In this document: positions 10,280 to 39,895 of the stretch, piece by piece
Layout: each line of letters begins with the position of its first letter
Numbering within the stretch: position 1 is the stretch's first letter
Assembly (NCBI GenBank): GCA_964491155.1
Contig: CAZBFG010000001.1
Coordinates: 4,604-68,603, forward strand
Length of the DNA: 64,000 bases
Reading direction: 5' to 3'
From: an uncultured Bdellovibrionales bacterium
Lineage (GTDB): Bacteria; Patescibacteriota; Minisyncoccia; Moranbacterales; UBA1568
Program-made: the position numbers and the translations under genes
Notes under the pieces: generated by a model
Seen by the model: only the letters and a program-made list of their open reading frames with translations
Database searches by the model: none
What the model was told of the DNA's origin: nothing

Positions 10280-10288
10280 CAGTTAAGT

Positions 10289-10910: not shown

Positions 10911-10957
10911 TTGTGTAACCGCGTCATTGACGCGGGACTTGTGGCGGCCTAGCCAGG

Positions 10958-11608: not shown

Positions 11609-11643
11609 GGTGTGCTCCTAAGTTGCACGGTGGGAAAGTTGAT

Positions 11644-11690
11644 TGCGTCTGTAAAATCAACTCACCCGAGTTGATAGATTCACAGACGCG
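11644..11690 (-). promoter_or_regulatory. Long imperfect hairpin in the 5' UTR of 10958-11608
   Basis: gcgtctgtgaatctatcaactc pairs with gagttgattttacagacgc (8 bp then 6 bp); it lies between the promoter and the ribosome-binding site. Confidence 0.4.
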
Positions 11691-11745
11691 AGGAACTGAG
11701 TTCTCCGATGTTTACCTCTTTGACGAGATACCCACTGGAGGAATC

Positions 11746-11774
11746 AGTATACACCTTTTCTTACTTCTTGTCAA
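11746..11774 (-). promoter_or_regulatory. Sigma70-type promoter, TTGACA-17-TATACT
   Basis: On the minus strand a consensus -35 (ttgaca) is followed by a 17-nt spacer and a -10 (tatact), about 130 nt upstream of the ATG at 11608. Confidence 0.6.
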
Positions 11775-11824
11775 TAGCTAGAAAGAGAATGTTTTAAGGC
11801 TCAAGGGAGCCTAAAAAGATCAAA

Positions 11825-11852
11825 GGCAGGTCGTTCGGATGAACTTCCTGCC
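11825..11852 (-). terminator. Intrinsic terminator after 11995-13617
   Basis: On the minus strand, ggcagg...cctgcc is followed by tttgatcttttt. Confidence 0.5.
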
Positions 11853-11994
11853 CTGATTGCGACGATGTCGCTAACTGCCCTGCTGCGTTTCATTTACCTA
11901 AGCCGATATGTCGCATCCAAATGATTTTCATCATTCGTCTTGGCGCATACCCTTTTTATAGACTTTCGTACAAATTCTACGCAGCTGTGTTCAG

Positions 11995-13617
11995 TCAGTC
12001 GTCAGCGTCAGAGGGCGCGGTCTTCCACTGCTTCTGGGGACTATTCATCCCCTTAGGCAGAATGACCATGCCATCCTTGTCGAGTCGGCCACCGGCCTTT
12101 TCGATCGCGGCCGTGAATTGCGCCTTGCGCGCTTGTTCACGATGCACGTAGACCGTCTTGCGGATGTCCCAGCTCCAGCCGAAACCGAAGAGTGAACCGC
12201 CGTTCAACAGGTCATAGTTGCGACCGAGGCCTATGAAGAGCCGCTCTTCCTTATCGCTCCACTGGAAGCGCCAGTTGGCCGTTTCTGCCAGGCTCGGAGC
12301 CTCTTGGAACCAGCCGAGCGCGAACCAGAGCTTGGTACCGATCTTGTCATCCTCTTCCGAAAGGTCGAGGAGACCGATACGTCCACCCACGTTCACGACA
12401 TGACTGAGCCTGGAGTCCGGGTCGGCCAGTGGTTGACCAAAAACGGAGTGTTCGGCCTCACCTCCCGTCGGCTTGAAGGCCGAAACGAAGAGTTGGTACT
12501 TGAAGAAGGACTTCTCCCCCCTCAACTCGCGTGCGTAGTTGTTGTACGCGAGCGTGATACCACGAAGGTCGAATTGCCGTTGGCTCTTGTAAGCCGCTTG
12601 CTCGCCGTTCTCTTCCAACGTGGCCCACGGCAGCAGCTTGAGACCGAAGTCGTAGCCACCTTCGTAAGCACTGTACTTGTAGGCCGGCCCGTAACCACCG
12701 AGGTGACCACTGAAACCAAAGCCTGTATCAGTCTTGCCGTGCCAGCTGCTGAAAGTGCCGCCGATACCGAACGCGTGTTCGGCACCGGAACCTTCAATGA
12801 AGAGACCGTAGAGCGCTCCAGACACGAACGTCGATTGCGCTGTCCGATCGTACTCCTTGCCGCCCACCAGTTCCCAGTCCCAGCGACGCACTGCCTCTTC
12901 AGGCGGTACTTCTTTGGGTTCGGGTTCTGGTATAACTTCTGGCGTCGGTTCTGGCTCTTTCTGCGGCTGCGGTTCTGGTTCCGGCTGTGGCTCAGGCTGT
13001 GGTTCTGGTTCCGGCTGTGGCTCAGGCTGGGACGTCACCATGAAGGTGATGTTCCCACATGAGAGCATATCGGCCAGCGTCTTGCCGGTCGAGAGCTTCC
13101 ATGTCTCCATCGCTTCGGGTCGCCCACCTTGTTCTGGTGTGCAAACCCTGACGTCACGGAGAAACTTGATCGTACCATCTTTGGAACGGAATGGCATGGC
13201 TTTGAACACCATGTCACTAGATACTAGCTCACGAACTCCACGCTCGAGAGAGACCAGAGCTTTCGCCTCGACTTTCTCTTCTGCCGTCAGATCCGGATTG
13301 GCATCGATTGCCTCCAGCCGAAGCTTGAGAGAGCCATAACGATTCCACGGCGCCCTATTCAAGTTGATGCAGGCTTGGGGCTGCTTCGCTTCGACAGCTG
13401 TACCACGCTCCGGGAACCGGATGATGGCACCAGCCTTGATGACGTTGCAGTCGTCCAGTTGATTGAACAGGCAGAGCACCTGCCAATCATGACCGAACTT
13501 CTTGGCAATCGATCCGAGCGTCTCGCCGGGATTGATTTTGTGAGGCGGCGTTTGATCGCCAGCCCACGCCCCCACCACTCCAAAGAGCAGCAAGAGAACC
13601 ATATACCATTTCTTCAT
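11995..13617 (-). CDS. Secreted LysM-like domain protein with a PEPQ-repeat linker and a Gly/aromatic-rich C-terminal domain
   Basis: Signal peptide MKKWYMVLLLLFGVVGAWAG; a LysM-like segment (INPGETLGSIAKKFGHDWQVL...IKAGAIIRFP); the linker QPEPQPEPEPQPEPQPEPEPQPQKEPEP; a C-terminal ~300 aa rich in G/F/Y/W. Confidence 0.6.
   Translation of the reverse strand: MKKWYMVLLLLFGVVGAWAGDQTPPHKINPGETLGSIAKKFGHDWQVLCLFNQLDDCNVIKAGAIIRFPERGTAVEAKQPQACINLNRAPWNRYGSLKLRLEAIDANPDLTAEEKVEAKALVSLERGVRELVSSDMVFKAMPFRSKDGTIKFLRDVRVCTPEQGGRPEAMETWKLSTGKTLADMLSCGNITFMVTSQPEPQPEPEPQPEPQPEPEPQPQKEPEPTPEVIPEPEPKEVPPEEAVRRWDWELVGGKEYDRTAQSTFVSGALYGLFIEGSGAEHAFGIGGTFSSWHGKTDTGFGFSGHLGGYGPAYKYSAYEGGYDFGLKLLPWATLEENGEQAAYKSQRQFDLRGITLAYNNYARELRGEKSFFKYQLFVSAFKPTGGEAEHSVFGQPLADPDSRLSHVVNVGGRIGLLDLSEEDDKIGTKLWFALGWFQEAPSLAETANWRFQWSDKEERLFIGLGRNYDLLNGGSLFGFGWSWDIRKTVYVHREQARKAQFTAAIEKAGGRLDKDGMVILPKGMNSPQKQWKTAPSDADD
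12936..13034. repeat. Tandem 30-bp DNA repeat encoding the PE/PQ linker
   Basis: ggttctggttccggctgtggctcaggctgt appears in at least two perfect copies plus degenerate copies. Confidence 0.7.
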
Positions 13618-14543
13618 GGCAAACTCCTTGTCTGTAGGTTTCTGGGTGGGTCGCTCGGAAGCAACCCGGCTTGGGTTTCTTCCTTCACGGCGTCACCTTT
13701 CTTCCCGCATCCGTTGTTCGCCACAGATATGTTATGCGGCAACGACAGCACTGCGCCGACAATCATAAACGTCGCGCTGGGCACTGCCGAAGCACTACCG
13801 CATGTGACGAGTCTGTCGAGCTTATTCACGCCCTTTGTCAGGGCGCCAACATGAACGATGTCCGGCTGCGTCGAGAACACTTCCCCATCATCTCCCATCG
13901 GGAGAGGAATGGGGTAGCGTGCTTCCAGCCACACGAAGAACTTGCGTCCTGCGGGGTGGTCGCGCCGGAAATTCGAATACTCAGGAAATGGCGAGGGATG
14001 GGCGGTGAAGAACTGATTACTCAGCTCAAAGGCGCCATTCTCGATATTTACCAAAGCACCCTTGGTCGTCATGACTGTCTTGCCATCATTGAACCGGACG
14101 AGCCAGTAGCCCCGATTGTACTCCGCCACCCTTCCAGGAGGCAAGAGTACAAAAAGCTCTGTTTCGTCAGGATTCATGATGGTGTCAAACACTTCAACTC
14201 TTCCATCGACGTAGTAGGCGGTTCGCCAGACCGAACAGATGACTGGTCGAACTGACTTCCCAACCTTGTACGAGCGACTCGGGTCACGGATCTCACTGCG
14301 CCAGGCCTCAGGGAGAGGCTTGGGCAACTTGATCATGGCGACCGTGTAGCTGAAGGTCTTGGTAACATCACCACGTACTGATACGCAGCGCCACGGCAGT
14401 TGTACACCACCTTGATCGCCTTGCTTCACCTTCGTGGTCTCGATGTTGTAGCCAATATCCTCTCTGACCTCTTCGATCTTCCGATCGATACTGGCGCACC
14501 CCGTGAGGAGGGCCAGAGCGATCATACCAATGATACGCAACAT
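13614..14543 (-). CDS. Lipoprotein of unknown function, overlapping the downstream LysM gene by 4 nt
   Basis: Lipobox MLRIIGMIALALLTGCAS; a GGAG ribosome-binding site ahead of the ATG at 14543; the track start at 14609 is an upstream extension. Confidence 0.6.
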   Translation of the reverse strand: MLRIIGMIALALLTGCASIDRKIEEVREDIGYNIETTKVKQGDQGGVQLPWRCVSVRGDVTKTFSYTVAMIKLPKPLPEAWRSEIRDPSRSYKVGKSVRPVICSVWRTAYYVDGRVEVFDTIMNPDETELFVLLPPGRVAEYNRGYWLVRFNDGKTVMTTKGALVNIENGAFELSNQFFTAHPSPFPEYSNFRRDHPAGRKFFVWLEARYPIPLPMGDDGEVFSTQPDIVHVGALTKGVNKLDRLVTCGSASAVPSATFMIVGAVLSLPHNISVANNGCGKKGDAVKEETQAGLLPSDPPRNLQTRSLP

Positions 14544-29507: not shown

Positions 29508-31208
29508 TTACAGACTAGCTGCCTTTCCAAGCGTCTCCACTGGGAGCTTGATGATAAACGTCGATCCCTTCCCTGAGCCTTCTGATTCGACAGAGAGCAA
29601 TCCCCCATGAGCTTCCACAAAGTTTTTGCCCACATAAAGACCAAGTCCCGTGCCGGAAACATCCAACTTCATAGTCTCCGTGCTTCTCGTGAATTTCTCA
29701 AAAAGCCGTTTACTCTCCTTTGGATCAACACCAATACCCGTATCCTTTATCCTGACAGAGACACACTTAGTATCTCCTTCAACAGTCACCGTGACACCGC
29801 CTTCTTTAGTATATTTGAGAGCATTATCGATCAAATTGGAAACCACTTCACGAATCTTATTCACGTCCAGTGTCAATTTTGGCAGAGACTTGTTCGGCAG
29901 CTTGATCTTGAGTGATAATTTTTTCTCTTTGGCCATGATCGTGAACATATCGACGATATCAGCCACAATCGGTTCCAGTTGGGCTTCGACAAAATTGTAC
30001 TGCACCCGACCGGATTCAATACGAGAAATACTAAGGAGATCCTCGACCAACTGACCCATGCGATTGTTCACTATATACACTTTGTTCAAAACATCCTGGA
30101 GTGTCATGGGAACTTTGCCATATGAACCCTCAAGTATGAGCGAAACATAACCCTTGATAGCTGTCAGTGGCGTCCTGAGCTGATGCGAAGCGATCGAAAT
30201 AAATTCCGATTTTGCCGCATCCAAACGTTTCAATTCGTTGTTTGCAATGGCCAACTCCTGCGTCAACGCCTGTAATTCCTCCTTACGCTTCACTTCTTCC
30301 TTAACAGATCGAATGAGTATAATTCCAAAGATAGAAGCCAGGATAAAGGTAGTGGCAACCAGTATGTAACTCGTCATCTCCCGGATAAAGAACAGCTGTG
30401 ATCCGATCAAAGATATAAGCCCCACCACCAATGCCTGAGCCCCAATAAGTTTTAGATTAAAAGCCTGATACTTCACAATCAAATAGGTAAGAAACCCAAG
30501 AAAAACCGGCATTCCAAAAAGTCCATACTGAAGAATTTTCCAATTATCTGGATCATCGGGATTGATAACCGAAGCAATACTCCCAGCTATATTCGCCCCG
30601 GAAAAAGAAAGAAGGAATAATACCGAACCAAGAACAAGATATACGGCTTGAACTCGAGCAGAATCTCGCGTTTTAAATATTTTCCAAATTCCATATCCAA
30701 GTAAAGTCAGAAAAAATACCACCTCAAGGAAATAAAAATAGTTAACAAGCACTCCTTGCTGCGCTTCACAAAGAGTCGCATTAAAACCAGTTATATTGTA
30801 TTGTGTGGGCAAAAGAACAAGAAAAGGAACAAAAAGCAAAGCGAATACTGCTTTATATCGCATTGCCAAATCTCGCTTTTCAATGAAAACATAGACGAAA
30901 TACACTGTGAGACAACTCACCATGTTTTCAAGAAGATTAATTATCGACCAAAAAAACATCGTTTTCCGACTGTCAGGACTACTCCAGAGAATCAAATCAA
31001 AGGCAGACCAAAGAGCGAAAAGAACTGTCACCAAAAAAAACAGCCTACTCGAGAGATCTTTTTTATTCTTAAAGAAAATAAACAGTCCCAAAAGCAAAGT
31101 GACAATCGCCGTTGGAATGTGAGAATAATACAAAATCACATTACCACTCAAAATAGAGTCCATTATTGCCTTGCAATATTCCGAGTTTGTAACAAGATTG
31201 AAATTCAT
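29508..31208 (-). CDS. Sensor histidine kinase with an N-terminal ~8-TM sensor domain
   Basis: Polytopic N-terminus, a coiled coil, the HisKA motif (SHQLRTPLTAIKGY) and a HATPase_c domain (N, G1, G2 boxes). Confidence 0.8.
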   Translation of the reverse strand: MNFNLVTNSEYCKAIMDSILSGNVILYYSHIPTAIVTLLLGLFIFFKNKKDLSSRLFFLVTVLFALWSAFDLILWSSPDSRKTMFFWSIINLLENMVSCLTVYFVYVFIEKRDLAMRYKAVFALLFVPFLVLLPTQYNITGFNATLCEAQQGVLVNYFYFLEVVFFLTLLGYGIWKIFKTRDSARVQAVYLVLGSVLFLLSFSGANIAGSIASVINPDDPDNWKILQYGLFGMPVFLGFLTYLIVKYQAFNLKLIGAQALVVGLISLIGSQLFFIREMTSYILVATTFILASIFGIILIRSVKEEVKRKEELQALTQELAIANNELKRLDAAKSEFISIASHQLRTPLTAIKGYVSLILEGSYGKVPMTLQDVLNKVYIVNNRMGQLVEDLLSISRIESGRVQYNFVEAQLEPIVADIVDMFTIMAKEKKLSLKIKLPNKSLPKLTLDVNKIREVVSNLIDNALKYTKEGGVTVTVEGDTKCVSVRIKDTGIGVDPKESKRLFEKFTRSTETMKLDVSGTGLGLYVGKNFVEAHGGLLSVESEGSGKGSTFIIKLPVETLGKAASL

Positions 31209-31244
31209 AGATATTTACACTATTTATATTTTTTACACCATCAG

Positions 31245-32099
31245 TCACTCGCTTTCTTTCATTATAGCAGAAACAACGGTCTTATATTCTTCCGGATAAT
31301 ACCTCCAATAAACATCTTCTTCAGTCTCTGCCGGAACAAGCCTCACAATAAGAGGTCTAACGCCAAAATCAGCAACTATACTCCTATATGTAGGTAAAAG
31401 AATGTTTTTTGTAAGATCACTATAAAATCCGCTCAAGAGGAAATTCTCAAAAAGAACGCCATGACAAATAAAAATTGAAAGGATATATCTATAGTATCTA
31501 CTTGCCTGCCCTCCATTTCTAGCATAATACTCAGACATATCAATTCTATTTTCAGATCCTAAAATAGAAGAAACTATACTGTGATGAAAATTAACAAGGC
31601 TTGTACCTGAAATAATTTTTACATCAGAAATTTTTTTTCCATCAAAAAAATCAAAATCCACAGCTTTTACAGACGATATTTTTCTGCCGCCCTTCTTGCC
31701 GAGTCCTTCATAAAAAACCATTTTTCCTAGATAATATTTATCCTCATTCTTGGTTACAAACTTATCACTGAGATACTCAAATCCTACCGGATCAATACCT
31801 ATACTCTTAACAGATTCTAAAAAATTTATAAGCTCAAAATTTGGACTCATGACATGCCGAGAGATCACTGCTCTCGGGGAAAGCTTCACTACTTCTGGAA
31901 TATCTTGCCCTAAGAATTCTTCTATTTTTGATTTTAACGCCGCATTATTCCACCGCTTCTTTATCTCTTCCTTTGCTTCATCAAGTGACATGTATATAGA
32001 ATCCAGCTCTGCTCTTGCATTCAAATCTTCTTGCGACATAAGACAGACACTATTATTCTCCAGTATTACTCTCAACATTCGTCTCGGGAAATTCCGCAC
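31245..32099 (-). CDS. Hypothetical cytoplasmic protein (AT-rich gene)
   Basis: 284-aa ORF with no recognisable motif; GC roughly 33%. The start is uncertain (GTG 32099, ATG 32078 or ATG 32039) and the first two options overlap the upstream gene. Confidence 0.45.
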   Translation of the reverse strand: MRNFPRRMLRVILENNSVCLMSQEDLNARAELDSIYMSLDEAKEEIKKRWNNAALKSKIEEFLGQDIPEVVKLSPRAVISRHVMSPNFELINFLESVKSIGIDPVGFEYLSDKFVTKNEDKYYLGKMVFYEGLGKKGGRKISSVKAVDFDFFDGKKISDVKIISGTSLVNFHHSIVSSILGSENRIDMSEYYARNGGQASRYYRYILSIFICHGVLFENFLLSGFYSDLTKNILLPTYRSIVADFGVRPLIVRLVPAETEEDVYWRYYPEEYKTVVSAIMKESE

Positions 32100-32553
32100 T
32101 CATCACTTCCTCTTCGGGCTCCAAAACCTCAACTGGCGCATTGAGCATGTTGTACGCTTCCGGATCACTACACTCTGATCCATCCTCCAAACTCGCATCA
32201 CAAAGAGTTATCACACATCCAACTTCATCTTCCTTACACTCAAGTGGCACACAGTCTTCGCTAGCAGGATCACACAGTGGGATATTCTTAGCATTTCTAT
32301 CAATCAGCTTATAATACGAAGTATCTGCCACTGGATCACCTGTGCATTCCTCTACGGTCGCATCACAATGGTACACAAAACAAGCCTCAGTCGTAGGATC
32401 GCACTCTATCTGTGATTGAAGAGGATAGTCTCGTAGAATAAAAAACCGATAGAAAGACAACCCGATTGAAATCGTTGTAGCAATAACAAACACCGCAATT
32501 AGTACCCTGCTACTCCTCTTTACCACAGCATCGCTCTTTGTCTCGATTTCCAT
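32053..32553 (-). CDS. Single-pass membrane protein with a Cys-rich acidic ectodomain
   Basis: TM helix VLIAVFVIATTISIGLSFYRFFIL; about 14 Cys residues in a ~110-aa extracytoplasmic region; acidic C-terminus. Confidence 0.5.
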   Translation of the reverse strand: MEIETKSDAVVKRSSRVLIAVFVIATTISIGLSFYRFFILRDYPLQSQIECDPTTEACFVYHCDATVEECTGDPVADTSYYKLIDRNAKNIPLCDPASEDCVPLECKEDEVGCVITLCDASLEDGSECSDPEAYNMLNAPVEVLEPEEEVMSAEFPETNVESNTGE

Positions 32554-32562
32554 AAAAAAATT

Positions 32563-33516
32563 TTAACTAATCAAGTATATCCCTATCGCAATAATACAAC
32601 ATGCGATGATTTTTGTCTTAAAAGCGACCAGCTGATCTTGATAAATCTGCCTGGATTTCTCTCTATTTGTCTTCAAAAAGATTACGACGAGCAGTAAACT
32701 GAGTACCATTACAAACACTGGCGCCAAGCTTCCGATAACAGCAACAAATGATACGGCCGGACTCAGATCGATGGCTCGCTGCAAAGCCACAACAGCCAAT
32801 AAATTCAAAACTTCAGCGAGAACAAAAACGAGGAAGAAATTCCGACTGATATCGTAGATATGTTTCATCCGAGAGCCTATCGACTTATGATCGAGCAGAG
32901 ATATGAGCAAGCCACTCACGGTAGCTCCAATGGAAAAAAGCAAAAAGCAGCTCCAAAAATCATTCCCTGTCGCTTGAAATGCCATCGTTTGAAACACCAT
33001 GCTTAGGGAAAGGAAAACAAAGGCTCCTATCATCAGGGAAAACACTTTCCCAAAGTTTTTTTCTTTAATTTCACCATGAAATGAAAATAGCATGGCTCCT
33101 GCAAAGGCTATAGCAATACCGATATAGTGCATCACAGATAACTGCTCCCCCACAAGAAGCCAGGCCAAAAATGGTACCAATGGAACGCTCAAATTAGCCA
33201 GCGCCTGCACCACTACCATATCATTCGAGACAAATAGAGTCTTGAAGTAAAAGTAATAGGAGAACATAAGAAAAGCACCGCTTGAGAAAGCGATGCCGGC
33301 AACTGTCCAACCTGGAAAAATAAATTCTACGAGTCCAAATAAAGGAAGGAGCCACGGGAGGAGCTGGAAGAGTGCATTGATGATAACACCGTCCCACTCA
33401 TCCTCATATACACCGCTCACAAAGTAGATGTCTATGATATTCACAAGAGCCCAAAAGAATGGCGCTAGAAATGCGACAAAAATCCAATGACTCCATAAAT
33501 ACCCAAAAAAATCCAT
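32563..33516 (-). CDS. DMT-superfamily (EamA-like) 10-TM permease
   Basis: 317 aa with two repeated 5-TM halves. Confidence 0.6.
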   Translation of the reverse strand: MDFFGYLWSHWIFVAFLAPFFWALVNIIDIYFVSGVYEDEWDGVIINALFQLLPWLLPLFGLVEFIFPGWTVAGIAFSSGAFLMFSYYFYFKTLFVSNDMVVVQALANLSVPLVPFLAWLLVGEQLSVMHYIGIAIAFAGAMLFSFHGEIKEKNFGKVFSLMIGAFVFLSLSMVFQTMAFQATGNDFWSCFLLFSIGATVSGLLISLLDHKSIGSRMKHIYDISRNFFLVFVLAEVLNLLAVVALQRAIDLSPAVSFVAVIGSLAPVFVMVLSLLLVVIFLKTNREKSRQIYQDQLVAFKTKIIACCIIAIGIYLIS

Positions 33517-33539
33517 ATCTGAGAAAAGAAAAATTCTTC

Positions 33540-33929
33540 CTACACAATATCTTGAAGAGGATATTTCTTACCGCGTTCGATAAAATTAACTTCTGTATCT
33601 TTCAGATCAAACTGTTTCACAAAATAGTTGATAATATGATCCTGTGAAAGACCATTCTTGCAGGTATAGACGTCGATACTGACGAAACCACGGGCTGGAA
33701 AGGTATGAATACTGATATGACTCTCGGCGATGACAGTAAATCCACTCCAGCCACCCGGGTCTTTCTTGTCATTTCCCTCAGCAAAGTACACTTCCGGACC
33801 GGCAAGAATATGCATATCGAGCATATCCGGTAAACCTTTGAGACAGTTTAGAACGAGCTCTTTGTCATTCAACTTCTCGTAATTCCCACCATATCCATCC
33901 AACGTCAAGTGCTCACCAAAATGCGTCAT
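33540..33929 (-). CDS. speH: S-adenosylmethionine decarboxylase proenzyme (class 1b, SpeH-like)
   Basis: AESHISIHTFP self-processing motif; about 130 aa when started at MTHFGEHLTLDGYG; the track start at 34019 is TTG. Confidence 0.75.
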   Translation of the reverse strand: MTHFGEHLTLDGYGGNYEKLNDKELVLNCLKGLPDMLDMHILAGPEVYFAEGNDKKDPGGWSGFTVIAESHISIHTFPARGFVSIDVYTCKNGLSQDHIINYFVKQFDLKDTEVNFIERGKKYPLQDIV

Positions 33930-34047
33930 AAAACAAGAGAAAAAATATATTTCACCAACAGAAAAATAATAACACAAAAACACATTTTTGGAAAGAAAAA
34001 AGGACTGCAACTTGTGCAACCCCGTTGAAGTTTAGTAGCCCTCGTGG

Positions 34048-34584
34048 CTACTTCCGTAAACGCAGCACATCGCTGCAGAACCTCTCGGCACATAGCGTGC
34101 CGCGTGTCTTGAAGTCCCGGCTCCCCTGCCGCAGATCGGTCACGAACGGAAAGGACTGTTCGATTTCAAAGTCGACCCCGTACTTCGGAGTGCTGCCCTT
34201 GTCCGCCGAGAGTAACCAGACCTTGAAACGGTAGGAATGCCTGGCATCAAAACACCAGTTTTCCCGATTCAAGCTCTTTGACACGAAGAACCAGCGCTCG
34301 TTTTTCTCGTCACCATCCCGCGCGTGAACAACAAATCCGTGATTCCCCGGTGTGTTGAGGAAAAACGTGCCGATGCAGAACGATCTTGCATTGGAGCGCG
34401 GACTGATGTCAAACTCCACCTCACTGTCCCGAAAAATCGCCGACCACAACTCGGTCTGTGGGGTAGGGGCGATGGAGGATGAATAGACACGAACGTCCGT
34501 GTGGTAACCAGGGTAATCAGCCGGCGTTTGCGCACGCGCCGCCACCGAAACCAGCAAGCAAAGAACCATGGCGATGAGTTGCAT
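34048..34584 (-). CDS. Secreted hypothetical protein, in high-GC cassette 2
   Basis: Signal peptide MQLIAMVLCLLVSVAARAQTPAD; an AGGAGG ribosome-binding site; own promoter at 34620-34648 (TTGACT-17-TATGGT) and terminator. Confidence 0.6.
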   Translation of the reverse strand: MQLIAMVLCLLVSVAARAQTPADYPGYHTDVRVYSSSIAPTPQTELWSAIFRDSEVEFDISPRSNARSFCIGTFFLNTPGNHGFVVHARDGDEKNERWFFVSKSLNRENWCFDARHSYRFKVWLLSADKGSTPKYGVDFEIEQSFPFVTDLRQGSRDFKTRGTLCAERFCSDVLRLRK

Positions 34585-34619
34585 CGCTTCCTCCTATGCG
34601 TCACGGATTGTGACTGTTC

Positions 34620-34648
34620 ACCATAACCTGAAATAAGAAAAAAGTCAA
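34620..34648 (-). promoter_or_regulatory. Sigma70-type promoter TTGACT-17-TATGGT for 34048-34584
   Basis: The minus strand reads cttgacttttttcttatttcaggttatggt. Confidence 0.45.
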
Positions 34649-34677
34649 GAAAAAACAGAGGAGCTGGAAACCCTCTG
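34645..34677 (-). terminator. Intrinsic terminator after the acidic protein gene
   Basis: On the minus strand, cagaggg-tttccagc-tcctctg is followed by ttttttctt. Confidence 0.55.
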
Positions 34678-34706
34678 CTTTTCTTTCTGTCTATCCTCCC
34701 CTTGTG

Positions 34707-36101
34707 TTATTTCCCGATGTTGAAGAACCAACCCAAGAGACTGAGGCGATCACGCTGACCTCCCACAAAATTCTGTAACTTCGATGTCTGTGCCTTGAGC
34801 ACTTCGACCTGATCAAGGATGATGGATTTCATGTCCTGATCTTCCACGGCCTCAGCTGCTTTCAGCAAGGACTCCGTACGAGTCTTGTTCGCAGCGATTT
34901 CTTGTTCCAAGCTATTCAAATCAGCATCACTGGCGCCAAACAATGCCTGCAAGACCGGATTGCGCTTGTCGACTTCTTTGACAGTCTCACCAATCTTCTT
35001 GGTAGCATCCTTATGGTCATCAGCGATACGACGGATTGCCCGTCCAACGTTGTCATCTTCAATATCAGCCACATCATTCAGGTGTTCAGCAATATCGTCA
35101 CTTTCGTCCTCCAGATCATCGTCGAGCTCTTCGTCCGTACCACCCAAGGCATAGATCATTCCTTCAACACTACTCTTGAGACGCTTGACCTTGCGCTCCA
35201 AGGCATCAAGAGAATCCTCCATCGCAGCCAAATCATATCCACCTGCAGCGATAGTAGCCTTGAGTGCTGCCAAATCAGACTCATACGACGCAAGAGTAGA
35301 CTTCACAGAACTACTATCACCTCCAACCGCTTCTAACAAAGCAATCTTGCCATTCGTTTGAGTAATCCGCTTGGCTACTTTGGCGACATCTTCAGCAACT
35401 TCCTTGGCATCATGCAAATCGTCGTTACGAGCGAAATGAGCCAATTTCTTCACTTCTTTGCTCAGCTGCTTGGCAGCTTCAAGATCATTACTATCAAACG
35501 CACCGCCCACTGTTGCTGCCATTATCTTGGCTTCGGCCAATCGAGCCAGGGCCGCCGTCACATCCACTCCTTCAGCCTGCTTCTCGAGAATTTCCTTTTC
35601 TGCTTCAGCAAGTTCTTTATCGAGCTTTGAAAGGGTCTTGGCACGATCCTTGTACATGCCATTGTCACTTCCCTTTCGGTCATCTCCGTCCTCATCCTCC
35701 AATTCGTCAACTCCGTTTTCATCACTGTCATCGTCTGCATCATCACTGTCATCATCCAAGTCATCTAATCCGTCATCGTCGGAAGTCTTTCCTGATCGCT
35801 CAGCCGCTTTCTTGAGCGTTTCACGCTCTCGCTCGGCTTTCTTTTTAGCTTCTTCCTTGGCTTTCTTCTCAGACTTCGACTCCTTATCATCATCTTTATC
35901 TTCGTCATCATCCTTGTCTTCGTCACTATCATCACCCCCATCATCATCTCCATCATCACCGCTCCCACTTTCAGCCAATGAAGTAGGAATGAAATTTAAA
36001 CCATTTTGAGTTGCCAGAGCCATGATACCAACGAACCCACCAAACGAAAGCACTGCTACCAACAATGCCGGCAACAGAGCGACTTTTTTCTTCTCAGACA
36101 T
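34707..36101 (-). CDS. Membrane-anchored, extremely acidic coiled-coil protein
   Basis: N-terminal TM helix; poly-Asp/Glu tracts (GDDGDDDGGDDSDEDKDDDEDKDDD); long heptad-like helical repeats; encoded by GAT/GAC-rich low-complexity DNA. Confidence 0.6.
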   Translation of the reverse strand: MSEKKKVALLPALLVAVLSFGGFVGIMALATQNGLNFIPTSLAESGSGDDGDDDGGDDSDEDKDDDEDKDDDKESKSEKKAKEEAKKKAERERETLKKAAERSGKTSDDDGLDDLDDDSDDADDDSDENGVDELEDEDGDDRKGSDNGMYKDRAKTLSKLDKELAEAEKEILEKQAEGVDVTAALARLAEAKIMAATVGGAFDSNDLEAAKQLSKEVKKLAHFARNDDLHDAKEVAEDVAKVAKRITQTNGKIALLEAVGGDSSSVKSTLASYESDLAALKATIAAGGYDLAAMEDSLDALERKVKRLKSSVEGMIYALGGTDEELDDDLEDESDDIAEHLNDVADIEDDNVGRAIRRIADDHKDATKKIGETVKEVDKRNPVLQALFGASDADLNSLEQEIAANKTRTESLLKAAEAVEDQDMKSIILDQVEVLKAQTSKLQNFVGGQRDRLSLLGWFFNIGK

Positions 36102-36201
36102 ACTTTTTATTTTTATGGCAAGTAGAACAAATTAAAAACCTACTCACCTTATATATTTCTCAGACGTAGTATAGCACAAAATCTTACAGAAACCGTCGCT
36201 C

Positions 36202-36846
36202 CTACTCAGTGGCCGCATTTTCTATGGCTTTTTTAAACGCATCCACACTACTTGGGTTCTCAAGCTTTTTCCCATTCAAAAAGAATGATGGTGTTCCTGA
36301 TATCTTGAGTTCGTTTCCAGTTGCACGGTCTTGATTGATTTTTTCATCCAAAGACGAATCATTCATGTCTTGTTTGAATTTTTCCACATCAATACCAACC
36401 CGGGTAGCGTAGGCAGGAAAAATACTCTTGGTTGGATCATCAGCGCTTGACCATTCTTTCTGATTGGTAAAAAGCATATCGTACATTTCCCAAAACTTCC
36501 CCTGACGGCCAGCTGCCTCCGCGGCCCGCGAGCTCGGTAACGCGTTTTTATGGATCTGAATGAGTGGATAATGACGCACCACAAACTTCATCTTTCCTTC
36601 TAGCTCTTTTGAAAGCTGATCAATGATAGGATGGTATGCCGCACAAGCCGGGCACTGAAAATCAGTATATTCTACCAACGTTACCGGAGCCCCAGCATCG
36701 CCTTTGACTCTGTCTTGCTCCGTGAGAGCGATTGGCCCGCCAAGAGCGACTGATCCTTCATTTTCTCCGGAAAACCCGTACTGCCAAACCGTAAACCCAA
36801 TAAACCCAACTAACGCTACCAATCCCAGCTTTATCAATGCACCCAT
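36202..36846 (-). CDS. DsbA-like thiol:disulfide oxidoreductase (thioredoxin fold), membrane anchored
   Basis: N-terminal TM helix; CPAC active site within FQCPACAAYHP. Confidence 0.75.
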   Translation of the reverse strand: MGALIKLGLVALVGFIGFTVWQYGFSGENEGSVALGGPIALTEQDRVKGDAGAPVTLVEYTDFQCPACAAYHPIIDQLSKELEGKMKFVVRHYPLIQIHKNALPSSRAAEAAGRQGKFWEMYDMLFTNQKEWSSADDPTKSIFPAYATRVGIDVEKFKQDMNDSSLDEKINQDRATGNELKISGTPSFFLNGKKLENPSSVDAFKKAIENAATE

Positions 36847-36894: not shown

Positions 36895-38052
36895 TCAATT
36901 TCCTTTGGCAAGAAAGACATTTACGGTCTCACCTGCTGCCTTTCCCCAAGAAAACCGAGCTGCTTGTGCCAACCCATCCTGTTGCATCCGTGCTGAGAGC
37001 TCCTGATTTTCCAAAACGGACTGCAGTGCCAGATATAGCTCCTCCGGCTGGTAGGGATCGATCATGATACTGGCTTTTCCTACTACTTCAGAAAGAGCCG
37101 AGGAATGACTGGTCACCACTGGGACGCCGCAGGCCATCGCTTCAAGCGGCGGAAATCCGAAACCCTCGTAAAAAGATGGATAAACAAACACGCTAGCCAA
37201 ATTATACAACGCCACCTTGTCTTCATCGGCGATAAATCCAGGGAGTCGGATACGATCTCTGTAGAGCGATGACTCGCAGGCAACAAATACATCCTGACAC
37301 TCCCAGCCGCGCGTACCGGCCAATACCAAATCGTGTTTCTTCGAAATATCATTTCCCGTGCGAAGCAGTGCTTCATACCCATGAATGAGCGAGCTCATAT
37401 TCTTCCGCGGTTCAAATGTCCCCAAAAAGAGGATAAACCGATATGGGAGATAATACTTTTCTTTAACACGCAAAAGCTCGGGGTCATTGCGATCCAACCG
37501 ATGGAAGCGTTTTTCGATGCCGCTGTGAACAACCGTGATCTTTTCCGCCGGCACCCGGTATTCTGTCACTAGATCCCCCTTGGTGGAATGAGAGACGGCA
37601 ATCACGCGATCAGCCCGACGCACCAAACTCCGGAAATTCACTAGGAAATGCCATATACGCTGCTTCCAAGAAAACATCTCTGGAAACCACTCAAATGACA
37701 CATCATGTGCCGTTACTACCAGTTCCGTATCTCGTGATACCGCAGCAAAGTTCAAATTGGGAAGAAAAAACACATCCGTACCTCCGACCAAGCGATCAAG
37801 CTTGGGAAAACCAAAATACCAAAGCGATAGATTGAACAGCTTGTTCGGAAAATGAAATACGCGGAGCGTAACGTTTGGGTACACCTCTACCCATGAAAAA
37901 TCCACTTCTTCGCTGCGCCAAGCATTGAAAAAGAGGATATACTCATTCGTCTGATCACGCTCAAAGACCGCTTTCAAAAGCGCTAGGGTATACTCTTCTA
38001 CCCCAGTACGCTTCCCCTCTGCCAAACACCGTATGTCTATTCCGATACGCAT
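36895..38052 (-). CDS. GT4-family glycosyltransferase
   Basis: Begins MRIGIDIRCLAEGKRTGVEEYT; GT1 C-terminal EGFGFPPLEAMACGVPVV; the ATG at 38052 lies 3 nt after the upstream stop. Confidence 0.8.
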   Translation of the reverse strand: MRIGIDIRCLAEGKRTGVEEYTLALLKAVFERDQTNEYILFFNAWRSEEVDFSWVEVYPNVTLRVFHFPNKLFNLSLWYFGFPKLDRLVGGTDVFFLPNLNFAAVSRDTELVVTAHDVSFEWFPEMFSWKQRIWHFLVNFRSLVRRADRVIAVSHSTKGDLVTEYRVPAEKITVVHSGIEKRFHRLDRNDPELLRVKEKYYLPYRFILFLGTFEPRKNMSSLIHGYEALLRTGNDISKKHDLVLAGTRGWECQDVFVACESSLYRDRIRLPGFIADEDKVALYNLASVFVYPSFYEGFGFPPLEAMACGVPVVTSHSSALSEVVGKASIMIDPYQPEELYLALQSVLENQELSARMQQDGLAQAARFSWGKAAGETVNVFLAKGN

Positions 38053-38054
38053 GC

Positions 38055-38651
38055 CTAGTGCTTCCGTAAAAAGTAATGTCTGAAAAGCACCGCCCAAAAC
38101 CCCACAAACAACCCCAAGGCCAAACCAATGAGCAGCGCTGTACGCAGATTCACCCGAGCATCCTCGAGCACCGGTTCGCTCCCTAGCACCACAAACCAAC
38201 TCTTTTCTTGTCCTTCCGTATTGAGCGTATTGGTATAGCGATTGAGCACGGTAACGAGAGCAGCCGACAATTGTTCCAAGGTCTTCTGATGTTCCCCATC
38301 GTATTTGACGCTAATAACCTGAGAAGAAAGTCTCCCCGCACGAAATGTAGCCCTCTCTGCCGTATCAATATGTGCCTCACGATAAATATCCTCGACGACC
38401 CGTGGTGTACCAAGCCAACGCACCACCGTATCAGCAAACCGCTCATCAGCCTGGAGACGATAAAAACTATCATAGGTGTAGTCGGTCGTTTCACTGACTC
38501 CTGTGCGCCCGATATTGATGAGGAGTGTCGCCTGGTATGATACCGGCTGTGATATTTGCCATACCCAAGCAACCAGAACACACAAACTGATCAACACCAT
38601 ATAGAACATGCGCTGCTTTTTGAATATGTCGAGAAATTCTTTCAGTTCCAT
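38055..38651 (-). CDS. Wzz-like chain-length determinant family protein (short)
   Basis: N-terminal and C-terminal TM helices flank a periplasmic domain; same architecture as 14727-15404. Confidence 0.5.
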   Translation of the reverse strand: MELKEFLDIFKKQRMFYMVLISLCVLVAWVWQISQPVSYQATLLINIGRTGVSETTDYTYDSFYRLQADERFADTVVRWLGTPRVVEDIYREAHIDTAERATFRAGRLSSQVISVKYDGEHQKTLEQLSAALVTVLNRYTNTLNTEGQEKSWFVVLGSEPVLEDARVNLRTALLIGLALGLFVGFWAVLFRHYFLRKH

Positions 38652-38728
38652 ATATCTTGGTTAAAAACACAGATATCAAAGCACAAAAGCCAAACAAAGC
38701 ACAGTTTCCAAAAAAATAATCAAAAAAA

Positions 38729-39895
38729 CTAGGGTGGGGTTTGTGGAATTGTGTTTTGTGTTTTGTTTGGACTTTGGACTCTGTGTTTTGTGTTTTCCAA
38801 ATGCTCATTTAGAGCATTGGTGACATAATTCCGTATTTTAGTCTTAAACTGCTCTTTGTCAAAATGAAGGGCCTGATTCCTGATAAAGACCGGGTCGTAG
38901 CGACTCTCATCAAATCCCTGCACGGCCCCCACTATTGATGCAGTAGTCTGTTCATTGAAAAACACTCCTGTCTCCCCTTCTTTCATATGTTCTACGATAT
39001 CGCCTCCCCGATAGGCAATCACCGGGCGACCCGAGGCCATCGCTTCCATGGCCACAATGCCGAAATCTTCTTCTTGGGGGAAAACAAAGGCCCGACACTC
39101 CGCATAGTACTGAGGCAACGCTTCATCCGAAACCCGTCCCAAAAATTCAATCGTCGGTCCGGCCAATTTCTTCAACCGATCCATTTCCGGACCACGACCG
39201 ATAATCTTCAGTGGAAGCTTGAGAGTATTAAAGGCCTCGATGGCGATATCAAAACGCTTGTAGGCAATCAGTCGGCCTACCATAAGAAAATAAGGCTTGC
39301 GATCTTCCGGCTTGGCAATATAGAACTGATCGACGTTGACCGGCGGGTGGATGACGGTCGCTTCTTTATGATAGTACTTGGCGATGCGCTTCCCCACAAA
39401 CTGCGAATTCGCGAGATAGCGGTCGACCCGATCGGCACTGGCCTTGTCCCACAGACGGATAGGACTCATGAAAAAAGGCACCAGTCGCTTCACGAGACTC
39501 GGGAAACCAAAATCCTGCGTGTATTTCTGGCAGTCATCCCACGCATAGCGCATCGGGGTGTGCATGTAGCAGATGTGGAGCGTCTCCGGTCTGGTGATAA
39601 TGCCTTTGGCATAGCTCGACGAATCAGACAACACGATGTCGTACTTACTAAAATCAAATTCTTCGATAGCGAGCGGCATCAGTGGCGGGAAAAAGCGATG
39701 ATGTTTGCGCGAAAAAGGCATTTTTTGTAGAAACGAGGTATAGATACGTTTCTCTGAAAACTGCCCCCGCATAGCCTGATCGTCGTGAATCAAAGTATAA
39801 ATCGGGGCATAGGGAAAAACCTCGGTAAAGGCCTCGAGTACCCGCTCGGCTCCACCATACTGCACCAAATAGTCATGCACCAGCGCTATTTTCAT
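38729..39895 (-). CDS. GT4-family glycosyltransferase
   Basis: Begins MKIALVHDYLVQYGGAERVLE; GT1 C-terminal EDFGIVAMEAMASGRPVIA. Confidence 0.8.
   Translation of the reverse strand: MKIALVHDYLVQYGGAERVLEAFTEVFPYAPIYTLIHDDQAMRGQFSEKRIYTSFLQKMPFSRKHHRFFPPLMPLAIEEFDFSKYDIVLSDSSSYAKGIITRPETLHICYMHTPMRYAWDDCQKYTQDFGFPSLVKRLVPFFMSPIRLWDKASADRVDRYLANSQFVGKRIAKYYHKEATVIHPPVNVDQFYIAKPEDRKPYFLMVGRLIAYKRFDIAIEAFNTLKLPLKIIGRGPEMDRLKKLAGPTIEFLGRVSDEALPQYYAECRAFVFPQEEDFGIVAMEAMASGRPVIAYRGGDIVEHMKEGETGVFFNEQTTASIVGAVQGFDESRYDPVFIRNQALHFDKEQFKTKIRNYVTNALNEHLENTKHRVQSPNKTQNTIPQTPP
38744..38798. repeat. GT-rich direct repeat (tgtgttttgtgttttg, two copies) overlapping the 3' end of the glycosyltransferase
   Basis: Two copies flank ggactttggactc; they encode the low-complexity tail PNKTQNTIPQTPP. 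Confidence 0.5.

What the first reader, a model, noticed from the sequence alone, without database searches (positions are those of the whole stretch)
34707..36846. Membrane-anchored hyper-acidic coiled-coil protein, adjacent to a membrane DsbA-like oxidoreductase
The 464-aa product has one N-terminal TM helix. It then carries about 120 residues that are more than 50% Asp/Glu, including uninterrupted DDDGDDSDEDKDDDEDKDDD runs, followed by about 300 residues of Ala/Lys/Glu-rich coiled coil. It is preceded by an extended -10 promoter (tgctatact at 36168-36176, minus strand). The next gene encodes a membrane-tethered CPAC thioredoxin-fold protein. A poly-acidic extracytoplasmic stalk could bind divalent cations or basic host or cell-wall polymers. 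The pairing with a disulfide oxidoreductase suggests an envelope-associated module.
Basis: partly seen in the sequence, partly recalled or inferred. Interest (0 to 1): 0.5.

Follow-up and report, generated by a model that had tools for sequence, protein, structure and literature searches.

The report
Exported hyper-acidic helical envelope protein
This gene encodes a real, conserved and very acidic protein of Moranbacteria (tiny uncultured CPR bacteria) that is almost certainly exported to the cell surface; its tail domain belongs to a large, unnamed family of secreted CPR proteins, and the neighbouring DsbA enzyme is probably not its functional partner.

Summary
ORF 34707-36101(-) encodes 464 aa: a K-rich N-terminus with a hydrophobic segment, two D/E-rich disordered stretches (63% and 53% D/E) around a basic helix, then about 315 helical residues. 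It is the acidity outlier of the window, with net charge -52. The upstream gene is a membrane-tethered CPAC DsbA.

- The helical part models as about 10 helices of 22-52 residues in tandem bundles, not one long coiled coil.
- DsbA sits upstream in only 12 of 28 related species loci.
- 102 of 103 family members have no cysteine, so the protein cannot be a DsbA substrate.
- A GT4 / Wzz-like / GT4 glycosyltransferase block upstream is the more widely conserved neighbour.
- The gene has its own promoter-like site and terminator-like hairpin.

Topology is N-in, C-out. A conserved P(-5), S/T/A(-3), A(-1) site suggests signal-peptidase cleavage.

The last ~140 residues, ending in an invariant G-W hydrophobic tail, match about 1,900 representative proteins. 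Most are ~215-aa secreted proteins of Paceibacteria-type CPR bacteria. They have no Pfam or NCBIfam model and no solved relative.

Best reading: an exported polyanionic envelope or surface protein of unknown biochemical function.

The parts
36168..36176 (-). Extended -10 promoter-like element TGCTATACT, 75 nt upstream of the ATG
   Evidence: Read directly. The strict two-hexamer scan did not list it, so no good -35 was found. TATAAT/TATACT lies 33-76 nt upstream of the start in most of 29 related loci, and TGnTATA[AC]T is present in 11 of them.
34707..36101 (-). CDS of the 464-aa acidic helical protein, stop codon included
   Evidence: The exact protein is found on ENA contig k141_762857. 126 full-length-type homologues, all from Moranbacteria where a source names them.
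35973..36101 (-). Residues 1-43: K-rich n-region, 23-residue hydrophobic segment, polar stretch ending in P-T-S-L-A. This is a signal anchor or a cleavable Sec signal peptide.
   Evidence: Hydropathy. Column statistics: A at -1 in 92/97 sequences, S/T/A at -3 in 79/103, P at -5 in 44/103. Charge asymmetry across the hydrophobic segment is also.
35877..35972 (-). Residues 44-75: first acidic low-complexity run (63% D/E for 46-75). It contains DGDDDG (residues 50-55), which fits the DxDxDG pattern; the family consensus here is DGEDDG.
   Evidence: pLDDT <50, so it is modelled as disordered. The DNA here is short tandem repeats of period 3/12/15/18.
35787..35876 (-). Residues 76-105: conserved basic K/E/R-rich helix (EKKAKEEAKKKAERERE) between the two acidic runs
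   Evidence: Conserved columns E83, K86, E90, E94, K97. Modelled as helix 76-104 with pLDDT around 75.
35652..35786 (-). Residues 106-150: second acidic disordered run (53% D/E). Its length varies among homologues, and some carry V-K-V-R-G-D-G-S-V-D-D-D inserts.
   Evidence: DNA repeats of period 9/12/21.
35142..35651 (-). Residues 151-320: two ~85-residue helical repeats (about 150-232 and 233-320). This part is specific to the Moranbacteria long form.
   Evidence: pLDDT >90, helices 153-176, 182-203, 207-258, 264-286, 291-318. hhalign of the two halves gives 92% probability, E 5e-7. Only 46 library representatives (E<=1e-30) score at the level of the long form or its nearest relatives.
34710..35141 (-). 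Residues 321-464: acidic loop plus a C-terminal helical bundle ending in the hydrophobic tail LSLLGWFFNIGK (G and W invariant). This domain is shared with a very large family of short secreted CPR proteins.
   Evidence: Profile search: 1891 representatives at E<=1e-3 and 1106 at <=1e-10, most matching only profile positions ~178-318. Alignment A4. 1024 hits at E<=1e-5 in the second search. No Pfam, NCBIfam or PDB match.
34650..34683 (-). Terminator-like hairpin (13-bp stem, T-run) 24 nt after the stop codon
36202..36846 (-). Upstream neighbour: membrane-tethered DsbA-like thiol-disulfide oxidoreductase (CPAC). Adjacent, but probably not a functional partner.
   Evidence: Present at this position in only 12 related species loci.
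36895..39895 (-). Conserved upstream block: GT4 glycosyltransferase (36895-38052), 198-aa Wzz-like protein predicted to have two transmembrane helices (38055-38651), GT4 glycosyltransferase (38729-39895)
   Evidence: Pfam hits. Wzz is sub-threshold only, E 0.014. Gene boundaries from the public gene calls. The block lies directly upstream of the acidic gene, or of DsbA, in 27 of the 34 related loci fetched for this comparison (L001-L034).

Best explanation
The gene encodes a Sec-exported, extracytoplasmic envelope or surface protein of a Moranbacteria (CPR/Patescibacteria) cell.

Export. The K-rich N-terminus and hydrophobic segment direct export with the rest of the chain outside. The segment then either stays as a signal anchor or is removed at the conserved P-x-S-x-A | (K/D)-DGEDD site.

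Layout outside the membrane:
- About 105 residues of disordered polyanion, as two D/E-rich runs split by a conserved basic helix.
- Two ~85-residue helical repeats.
- A conserved ~140-residue helical bundle whose extreme C-terminus is an invariant G-W hydrophobic tail.

Family. That last domain is the defining module of a very large, unannotated family of small secreted proteins of Paceibacteria-type CPR bacteria. The Moranbacteria protein is a lineage-specific long form of it.

Inferred mechanism, not shown. The helical rod with its hydrophobic tail docks to the membrane or to a partner. The polyanionic spacer fills the wall zone, where it binds divalent cations or basic polymers, or acts as a charged brush.

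Transcription and the DsbA neighbour. The gene appears to be transcribed on its own, from a strong -10 promoter-like site to a terminator-like hairpin. Its adjacency to DsbA is a clade-restricted gene-order feature, not an enzyme-substrate pairing.
For: Shown here:
- The ORF and its composition, and its acidity outlier status in the window.
- The family is conserved to 38% identity with the same architecture.
- Charge asymmetry fits N-in/C-out: N-flank net positive in 85/103, C-flank net negative in 103/103.
- A conserved -5/-3/-1 pattern precedes the acidic run.
- In the AlphaFold model residues 150-462 are helical with pLDDT >90 and the acidic runs are <50.
- The C-terminal domain matches 1891 representative proteins. 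In the sample examined, 197/212 have signal-peptide-like N-termini and 206/212 have the G-W tail at the very C-terminus. Alignment A4 shows clear homology.
- Source names are only 'hypothetical protein' from Paceibacterota, Pacebacteria, Staskawiczbacteria and Moranbacteria.
- No cysteine in 102/103 members.
- DsbA is adjacent in 12 of 28 species loci.
- Promoter-like -10 elements recur upstream in most loci, and a terminator-like hairpin follows the stop.

Background: CPR-enriched protein families are mostly unannotated, and most are predicted to be membrane or extracellular proteins (PMC6744442).

Inferred only: cation or polymer binding by the acidic spacer, docking by the G-W tail, and the cleaved versus anchored state.
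Against: - The hydrophobic segment is long (23 residues) and the putative cleavage site lies 13 residues beyond it. This is atypical for signal peptidase I, so anchoring cannot be excluded.
- One relative (P0171, on a 1.8-kb contig) fuses the domain to a RelA/SpoT-type domain without a signal peptide, which would put the domain in the cytoplasm.
- The acidity of the linker varies widely among short-form relatives (3-56% D/E), so polyanion function may not be essential to the family.
- The topology inference rests on simple rules, not on a trained predictor.
Confidence: 0.55

Rival explanations
1. Accessory component of a surface-glycan assembly module. The protein works with the upstream GT4 / Wzz-like / GT4 genes, for example as an extracytoplasmic scaffold or docking protein for the polymer made by them, or as the protein that is glycosylated.
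For: The GT4b / Wzz-like / GT4a block lies directly upstream, on the same strand, in 27 of the 34 related loci fetched for this comparison (L001-L034). These span acidic-protein identities from 92% down to about 36%. Both GT4 genes pass the Pfam thresholds. The 198-aa protein has a sub-threshold Wzz N-terminal match over 83 of 91 profile positions.
Against: - Wider collinearity also holds: PheS/PheT upstream, and the Cys-rich p166 protein, EamA and AdoMet decarboxylase downstream recur as well. The linkage may therefore reflect general synteny conservation in the lineage.
- The acidic gene has its own promoter-like element across loci and an 88-142 nt gap from GT4a where DsbA is absent.
- Loci L004, L023 and L033 lack the block upstream.
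- Three short-form relatives sit in unrelated contexts.
- The Wzz assignment is below threshold.
Confidence: 0.2
2. Secreted membrane-active or lipid-binding helical protein used at the host interface. It would act as an alpha-helical pore-former or an apolipoprotein-like lipid carrier, with the C-terminal hydrophobic G-W tail inserting into a membrane.
For: - The family is secreted.
- It has an invariant hydrophobic C-terminal tail.
- It is widespread in CPR bacteria, which are thought to depend on hosts (family distribution; CPR-enriched cell-cell interaction families in PMC6744442).
Against: - The best Foldseek E-value is 0.26.
- The ApoLp-III Pfam match is insignificant, E 1.2.
- The hydrophobic tail is only about 11 residues, too short to span a bilayer.
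- No hydrophobic hairpin or head domain is evident in the sequence.
Confidence: 0.15
3. The first reader's module: the acidic protein and the DsbA-like oxidoreductase form a functional envelope pair, as substrate, partner or co-regulated unit.
For: Same strand, a 100-nt gap, and both are predicted to be extracytoplasmic. The pair is conserved in 12 related species loci with DsbA identities of 58-92%. In one distant locus (L004) a DsbB gene lies directly downstream of the homologue.
Against: - 102 of 103 family members have no cysteine, so there is no disulfide to make.
- DsbA is absent from this position in 16 of 28 species loci with upstream DNA, including L032 at 70-79% identity.
- A promoter-like element lies between the two genes.
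- A likelier DsbA client is nearby: the Cys-rich exported protein at 32053-32553.
Confidence: 0.07
4. Cytoplasmic, membrane-tethered helical scaffold, similar to the cell-division protein EzrA (N-terminal transmembrane helix followed by spectrin-like helical repeats).
Against: - The charge distribution is the reverse of what a cytoplasmic C-terminal domain needs: positive before the hydrophobic segment and strongly negative after it, in all 103 sequences.
- Short-form relatives have ordinary cleavable-type signal peptides.
- The EzrA matches are no better than those to designed helix bundles.
Confidence: 0.03

Closest known systems
Uncharacterised short secreted proteins of Paceibacteria-type CPR bacteria (about 170-260 aa, named only 'hypothetical protein', no Pfam or NCBIfam model), e.g. 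P0196, P0180, P0294
   Same: The C-terminal ~140-residue domain is homologous: HMMER E-values of 1e-20 to 1e-25 to the Moranbacteria profile, and 6e-42 for the window protein against the short-form profile. It shares the conserved G-I-G loop, the R...F-L-I-G motif and the terminal F-S-L-F-G-W-L-x-K-L-F tail. These proteins are also exported and carry a low-complexity polar or acidic linker.
   Different: The window protein is twice as long. It adds two ~85-residue helical repeats and a much more acidic, bipartite spacer with a conserved basic helix, and it has a longer hydrophobic N-terminal segment. The long form is confined to Moranbacteria and sits in a conserved gene neighbourhood, whereas three short forms sit in unrelated contexts.
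Bitopic envelope spacer proteins such as TolA (N-terminal anchor, long charged helical region, distal domain). This comparison rests on general knowledge and was not tested here.
   Same: One N-terminal hydrophobic segment, followed by an extended, highly charged extracytoplasmic region and a distal folded domain.
   Different: No sequence or profile similarity was found. The charged region here is disordered polyacid rather than a K/A/E helix. CPR cells have no outer membrane to bridge. The N-terminal segment may be cleaved.
EzrA (membrane-tethered protein with spectrin-like helical repeats, PDB 4uxv/4uy3)
   Different: The predicted topology is the opposite. There is no sequence similarity, and the matches are no better than those to designed bundles.
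Tripartite alpha-pore-forming toxin subunits AhlC and AhlB (ClyA superfamily, PDB 6h2d/6grj)
   Different: Only about 120-140 residues align, at 7% identity. No hydrophobic head or hairpin is recognisable, and there is no partner-subunit gene nearby. The similarity is generic to helix bundles.
Acidic low-complexity, cation-binding segments such as the acidic 'hinge' subunit QCR6 of cytochrome bc1 or the acidic stretches of ryanodine receptors
   Same: D/E-rich composition. These are the only PDB sequence-profile hits, with QCR6 at E 6.5e-4.
   Different: The match is purely compositional (bias 21.6 of 21.5 bits) and carries no evolutionary or functional information.

Membership tests
Sec-type signal peptide cleaved by signal peptidase I | Positively charged n-region followed by a hydrophobic h-region | tested here: met
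   MSEKKK followed by a 23-residue hydrophobic stretch. The N-flank is net positive in 85/103 homologues, and the rest look N-terminally truncated.
Sec-type signal peptide cleaved by signal peptidase I | Small residues at -3 and -1, with a helix breaker around -5, close to the end of the h-region | tested here: inconclusive
   A at -1 in 92/97 sequences, S/T/A at -3 in 79/103, P at -5 in 44/103. However, the site lies 13 residues after a 23-residue h-region, which is longer than is typical. No trained predictor was available, and cleavage itself cannot be tested with these tools.
DsbA substrate (protein oxidised by the neighbouring oxidoreductase) | At least two exported cysteines able to form a disulfide | tested here: not met
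   The window protein has no Cys. 102/103 family members have none.
DsbA / Thioredoxin_4 family (the neighbouring gene 36202-36846) | Thioredoxin fold with a CxxC active site, scoring above the Pfam gathering threshold | tested here: met
   PF13462 108.4 bits (cut-off 23.2) and PF01323 65.4 bits (cut-off 25.6). CPAC motif present.
Conserved acidic-protein / DsbA gene pair | Adjacency conserved across the family | tested here: not met
   Adjacent in 12 of 28 GTDB species loci that have upstream DNA, mostly the closer relatives. Absent in L032 (70-79% identity) and in all loci at or below about 48% identity.
Long two-stranded coiled coil | Continuous helix of hundreds of residues with unbroken heptad register | tested here: not met
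   AlphaFold with a 103-sequence alignment gives 10 helices of 7-52 residues separated by loops, at pLDDT >90. Structure matches are to 3- and 4-helix bundles and to the talin rod. No dedicated coiled-coil predictor was run.
Any curated protein family (Pfam-A, NCBIfam) | Score above the curated threshold | tested here: not met
   The best Pfam hit is Metal_resist at 16.9 bits against a cut-off of 29.2. NCBIfam gives none. The same holds for ten short-form relatives.
CPR short secreted 'G-W tail' domain family (unnamed) | A C-terminal ~140-residue helical domain with the G-I-G loop, the R...F-L-I-G motif and a terminal hydrophobic G-W tail, on an exported protein | tested here: met
   An HMM built from A4 hits the window ORF at 6.3e-42. 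The reverse profile search finds 1891 representatives. G138 and W139 are invariant in A4.
Wzz / polysaccharide co-polymerase (the 198-aa neighbour 38055-38651) | Pfam Wzz domain above threshold, with transmembrane helices at both ends | tested here: inconclusive
   PF02706 E 0.014, 16.1 bits against a cut-off of 25.5, covering profile positions 4-86 of 91. Hydrophobic segments at both ends are visible in the sequence. No NCBIfam hit.
ClyA-type alpha-pore-forming toxins (AhlB/AhlC) | Elongated helical bundle with a hydrophobic head or tongue that inserts into membranes, usually with partner subunits encoded nearby | tested here: not met
DxDxDG calcium-binding loop | Sequence pattern D-x-[DN]-x-D-G in a loop that coordinates Ca2+ | tested here: inconclusive
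   The pattern occurs once, as DGDDDG at residues 50-55. The family consensus is DGEDDG, with G51 in 93/103. The region is modelled as disordered. In a segment this rich in D and G the pattern is expected by chance, and binding cannot be tested here.

The most novel reading that the evidence does not exclude
The C-terminal ~140-residue helical bundle with its invariant terminal G-W hydrophobic tail defines a large protein family. It has about 1,900 clusters at 50% identity and more than 1,000 at E<=1e-10. It is seen so far only in CPR/Patescibacteria genomes and metagenomes, and it has no Pfam or NCBIfam model, no name and no solved relative. On this reading the family is a core surface or host-interface component of these episymbiotic bacteria. 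The Moranbacteria hyper-acidic long form would be a specialised derivative that builds a proteinaceous polyanion layer, taking over a role played elsewhere by anionic wall polymers.
Probability: 0.25. Interest if true: 0.6.

Novelty: new variant of a known kind. Interest (0 to 1): 0.38.

Why it matters
CPR bacteria are a large part of bacterial diversity, and most of their lineage-specific proteins are unannotated and predicted to sit in the membrane or outside the cell (PMC6744442). This finding links one oddly acidic gene to a very large, consistently secreted and completely unnamed domain family. That gives a concrete target for a family definition (a new Pfam or DUF entry), for metaproteomic look-ups and for structural work on the CPR cell surface. 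It also removes a tempting but unsupported 'DsbA module' annotation. On present evidence the biochemical function is unknown, so the practical value is as a well-delimited lead rather than a discovery of mechanism.

Tried and rejected
- Curated family scans of the whole protein, of the helical part alone and of ten short-form relatives gave nothing above threshold.
- PDB sequence-profile searches with the full-length alignment and with the C-terminal domain alignment returned only compositional matches (QCR6, ryanodine receptor) or coiled-coil noise.
- The AlphaFold-database Foldseek library was not available.
- Cluster look-up for names of ten relatives found none informative.
- The contexts of three short-form relatives share no neighbours.
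- Literature searches for Moranbacteria envelope proteins and for DsbA in Patescibacteria returned nothing relevant.
- I considered an EzrA-like cytoplasmic scaffold and rejected it on charge topology. I considered a DsbA substrate and rejected it on the absence of cysteine. I considered a di-iron or hemerythrin-like bundle, as one JGI label suggests, and rejected it because only one conserved His is present in the short-form alignment A4.
- The 178-aa ORF at 34048-34584 was checked as a possible conserved partner. It has no protein or DNA match in any related locus, not even the 92% relative.
Full report
**1. What is in the sequence**

The ORF at 34707..36101 on the minus strand starts with ATG and encodes 464 residues. 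Its layout is as follows:
- Residues 1-6 are MSEKKK, and residues 7-30 are hydrophobic.
- Residues 31-43 are polar and end in P-T-S-L-A.
- Residues 46-75 are 63% D/E.
- Residues 76-105 are a K/E/R-rich stretch.
- Residues 106-150 are 53% D/E.
- A third acidic patch lies at 320-350 (55% D/E).
- Net charge is -52, and there is no cysteine.

The real sequence is DDGDDDGGDDSDEDKDDDEDKDDD. The longest run made only of D/E is five residues, and residues 46-150 as a whole are 48% D/E rather than more than 50%.

The ORF is the clear compositional outlier of the window. Its D+E content is 24.7% against a median of 12.2% for 54 non-overlapping ORFs of at least 150 aa. Its best 30-residue stretch has 20 acidic residues, against 11 for the runner-up. 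The acid-coding DNA consists of short imperfect tandem repeats of period 3 to 21, which fits the length variation seen among homologues.

The upstream gene 36202..36846(-) is a 214-aa DsbA/Thioredoxin_4 protein with an N-terminal hydrophobic segment and a CPAC motif. TGCTATACT is at 36176..36168(-), 75 nt before the ATG. A terminator-like hairpin with a 13-bp stem and a T-run lies at 34683..34650(-), 24 nt after the stop.

**2. The protein belongs to a conserved Moranbacteria family**

A search with residues 151-464 found 126 proteins. Nearly all are 440-490 aa, with identities from 93% down to 38%. Where a source names them, they are 'hypothetical protein' of Candidatus Moranbacteria.

The exact protein is on a 117-kb ENA metagenome contig. 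A scan of one genome per GTDB species found 30 loci. All are in Moranbacteria-type assemblies. Several carry an 'uncultured Bdellovibrionales' label that looks like a mislabel.

Alignments of 32 and 103 members show that the whole architecture is conserved. The shared elements are:
- a K/R-rich start and a hydrophobic segment;
- a conserved S-x-A followed by (K/D)-D-G-E-D-D;
- an acidic run, then the basic helix EKKAKEEAKKKAERERE, then a second acidic run of variable length;
- a well-conserved helical region from N-G-M-Y-K-D-R to a C-terminal F-G-W-F-F-N-L-F.

**3. Topology**

Before the hydrophobic segment the net charge is positive in 85 of 103 sequences, and the others look truncated at the start. 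In the 25 residues after it, the net charge is -1 to -14 in all 103. By the positive-inside rule the acidic and helical parts are outside the cytoplasm.

Directly before the acidic run, Ala occupies the -1 position in 92 of 97 sequences. S/T/A occupies -3 in 79 of 103, and Pro occupies -5 in 44 of 103. That is the pattern of a signal peptidase I site.

The hydrophobic segment is long (23 residues) and the site is 13 residues further on. I therefore cannot decide between a retained signal anchor and a cleaved signal peptide, and put it at roughly even odds. I had no trained predictor.

**4. Structure**

AlphaFold2 with the 103-sequence alignment gives mean pLDDT 78:
- Residues 150-462 are all helical and mostly above 90.
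- Residues 21-73 and 107-147 are below 50, which I read as disordered.
- The basic helix 76-104 is intermediate.

The helical part is ten helices of 7 to 52 residues with short loops. That makes it tandem helical bundles, not one long coiled coil. A profile-profile comparison of residues 150-232 with 233-320 gives 92% probability and E 5e-7, which suggests an internal duplication of an ~85-residue unit.

**5. The C-terminal domain is much more widespread than the full-length protein**

A profile of residues 146-464 was searched against 1.84 billion representative proteins. It found 1891 hits at E<=1e-3 and 1106 at E<=1e-10. Only 46 reach E<=1e-30, the level at which the Moranbacteria long form and its nearest relatives score.

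Most of the rest are proteins of about 170-260 aa that match only the last ~140 profile positions, which correspond to window residues ~323-464. Their layout is a signal peptide, a low-complexity polar or acidic linker, and then the domain, which ends at the very C-terminus with F-S-L-F-G-W-L-V-K-L-F.

In the sample I examined, 197 of 212 have a signal-peptide-like N-terminus and 206 of 212 have the G-W tail.

A second search with the domain alignment found 1024 proteins at E<=1e-5. The only organism names are Paceibacterota, Pacebacteria and Staskawiczbacteria, and no Pfam domain is on record for any listed hit. Ten representatives have no Pfam or NCBIfam hit, and there is no solved relative.

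Architectural variants exist: two tandem copies (P0174), added 'secreted repeat' modules (P0254), a Thr-rich tail (P0183), and one fusion to a RelA/SpoT-type domain without a signal peptide (P0171, on a 1.8-kb contig). The window protein is therefore a lineage-specific long form of a large, unnamed, secreted CPR protein family. The 64-kb window has only this one copy.

**6. Gene neighbourhood**

I compared 34 related loci (L001-L034) and confirmed the DsbA result by tblastn.
- The block GT4 glycosyltransferase / ~200-aa Wzz-like protein predicted to have two transmembrane helices / GT4 glycosyltransferase lies directly upstream, on the same strand, in 27 of these loci. They span the whole identity range.
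- DsbA is inserted between that block and the acidic gene in only 12 species loci (L005-L016). These are mostly the closer relatives, with acidic-protein identity of 46-92%.
- DsbA is absent in 16 of the 28 species loci that have upstream DNA. One of them, L032, is 70-79% identical.
- In one distant locus (L004) the context is different and a DsbB gene lies downstream.

Because the family has no cysteine, the protein cannot be a DsbA substrate.

The link to the glycosyltransferase block is more conserved but not decisive, for three reasons:
- Wider collinearity is also conserved. PheS/PheT recur upstream, and a Cys-rich exported protein, EamA and AdoMet decarboxylase recur downstream.
- The acidic gene has its own -10-like element in most loci. 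TATAAT or TATACT lies 33-76 nt upstream, and TGnTATA[AC]T is present in 11 of 29 loci, several with a TTGACA upstream.
- Three short-form relatives sit in unrelated contexts.

The Wzz assignment of the 198-aa neighbour is sub-threshold (E 0.014). The GT4 genes match only generic GT4 models.

**7. Most likely mechanism**

Shown or strongly supported:
- The protein is exported.
- It has a disordered polyanionic N-terminal part and a folded helical C-terminal part.
- The C-terminal module is a conserved secreted domain with an invariant hydrophobic G-W terminus.
- The gene looks like an independent transcription unit.

Inferred:
- The helical rod and its tail dock to the membrane or to a partner.
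- The acidic spacer occupies the wall zone and binds divalent cations or basic polymers, or acts as a charged brush.
- The D-G-D-D-D-G at residues 50-55 fits the DxDxDG calcium-loop pattern (family consensus D-G-E-D-D-G). In such a D/G-rich segment this is weak evidence.

I give the overall reading about 0.55: about 0.85 for extracytoplasmic location and about 0.3 for cation or polymer binding.

Rivals:
- Accessory of the glycan module, 0.2.
- Secreted membrane-active or lipid-binding host-interface protein, 0.15.
- Cytoplasmic EzrA-like scaffold, 0.03.

**8. Comparison with what is known, and novelty**

The protein is a member of no curated family. By homology its closest relatives are the unnamed short secreted CPR proteins. 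By architecture it resembles bitopic envelope spacer proteins, but no homology supports that.

It is a real feature and an uncharacterised one. Nothing here shows a new mechanism, so I class it as a new variant of a known kind: an exported surface protein with a low-complexity spacer and a helical domain.

The most interesting by-product is the size of the unannotated domain family, together with its consistent secretion and its apparent restriction to CPR bacteria. Published work notes that CPR-enriched families are mostly unannotated and mostly membrane or extracellular (PMC6744442). I did not find this family named there or elsewhere.

**9. Verdict**

The envelope location is likely. The 'coiled coil' is a set of helical bundles. 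The DsbA pairing is probably incidental, and membrane anchoring is uncertain. Interest is 0.38.

Noticed in passing
window 32053-32553 (-): A 166-aa protein with one N-terminal hydrophobic segment and an acidic, Cys-rich exported part (about 12 Cys, net charge -25). It is the second most acidic ORF in the window. Homologues recur a few kb downstream of the acidic gene in many related loci. It is a likelier client of the nearby DsbA than the Cys-free acidic protein.
   Followed up: partly
window 34019-34710 (-), including ORF 34048-34584: The 178-aa ORF with a signal-peptide-like start (MQLIAMVLCLLVSVAARA|QT) lies between the acidic gene and AdoMet decarboxylase. It has no protein or DNA match in any related locus, not even the 92%-identical relative L005. 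It is called as a gene in one public assembly but not in the other. It is either a strain-specific insertion or a spurious ORF.
   Followed up: partly
window 36102-36125 (-) and the equivalent positions in loci L006, L009, L010, L012, L013, L016, L021, L023, L033: The leader just before the ATG is a conserved A-rich tract (AAAAATAAAAA-n-T-ATG) with no GGAGG-type Shine-Dalgarno sequence. This may be a lineage-typical translation start for this gene.
   Followed up: no
homologues P0002, P0004, P0006, P0033, P0095, P0108, P0114, P0116, P0119 (alignment A1, columns ~180-200): A short conserved insert, V-N-G-V-K-V-R-G-D-G-S-V-D-D-D, sits inside the second acidic run. It is sometimes present twice. 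It is absent from the window protein. Its function is unknown.
   Followed up: no
P0171 (497 aa), P0174 (445 aa), P0254 (280 aa), P0183 (220 aa): Architectural variants of the C-terminal G-W-tail domain: a fusion to a RelA/SpoT nucleotidyltransferase domain without a signal peptide, two tandem copies of the domain, added Lipoprotein_15 'secreted repeat' modules, and a Thr-rich C-terminal extension.
   Followed up: partly
loci L005, L007-L009, L011, L012, L014, L016, L018, L020, L029, L031, L033, L034: Many TPA metagenome-assembled genomes titled 'uncultured Bdellovibrionales bacterium' carry this Moranbacteria-specific locus with the same gene order. The taxonomic label of those records is probably wrong.
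   Followed up: no
window 36895-38199 (-): The longest ORF for the GT4 gene starts at a TTG at 38199 and overlaps the Wzz-like gene by 145 nt. Public gene calls start it at 38052 (385 aa), directly after the Wzz-like stop, which is the more plausible start.
   Followed up: yes
window 8001-14000 and 30001-34000: Base composition departs from the window mean of about 0.48 GC. The 8-14 kb stretch reaches 0.52-0.57 and has a strongly negative AT skew at 8-10 kb. The 30-34 kb stretch drops to 0.37-0.41. These may be foreign or otherwise differently evolving segments.
   Followed up: no
locus L004 (7467-8018) and L004 5276-5941: In one distant relative the acidic gene is followed directly by a DsbB-family gene and preceded by a 221-aa membrane protein with no family match. 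This is a second, independent juxtaposition with a disulfide-bond gene.
   Followed up: partly
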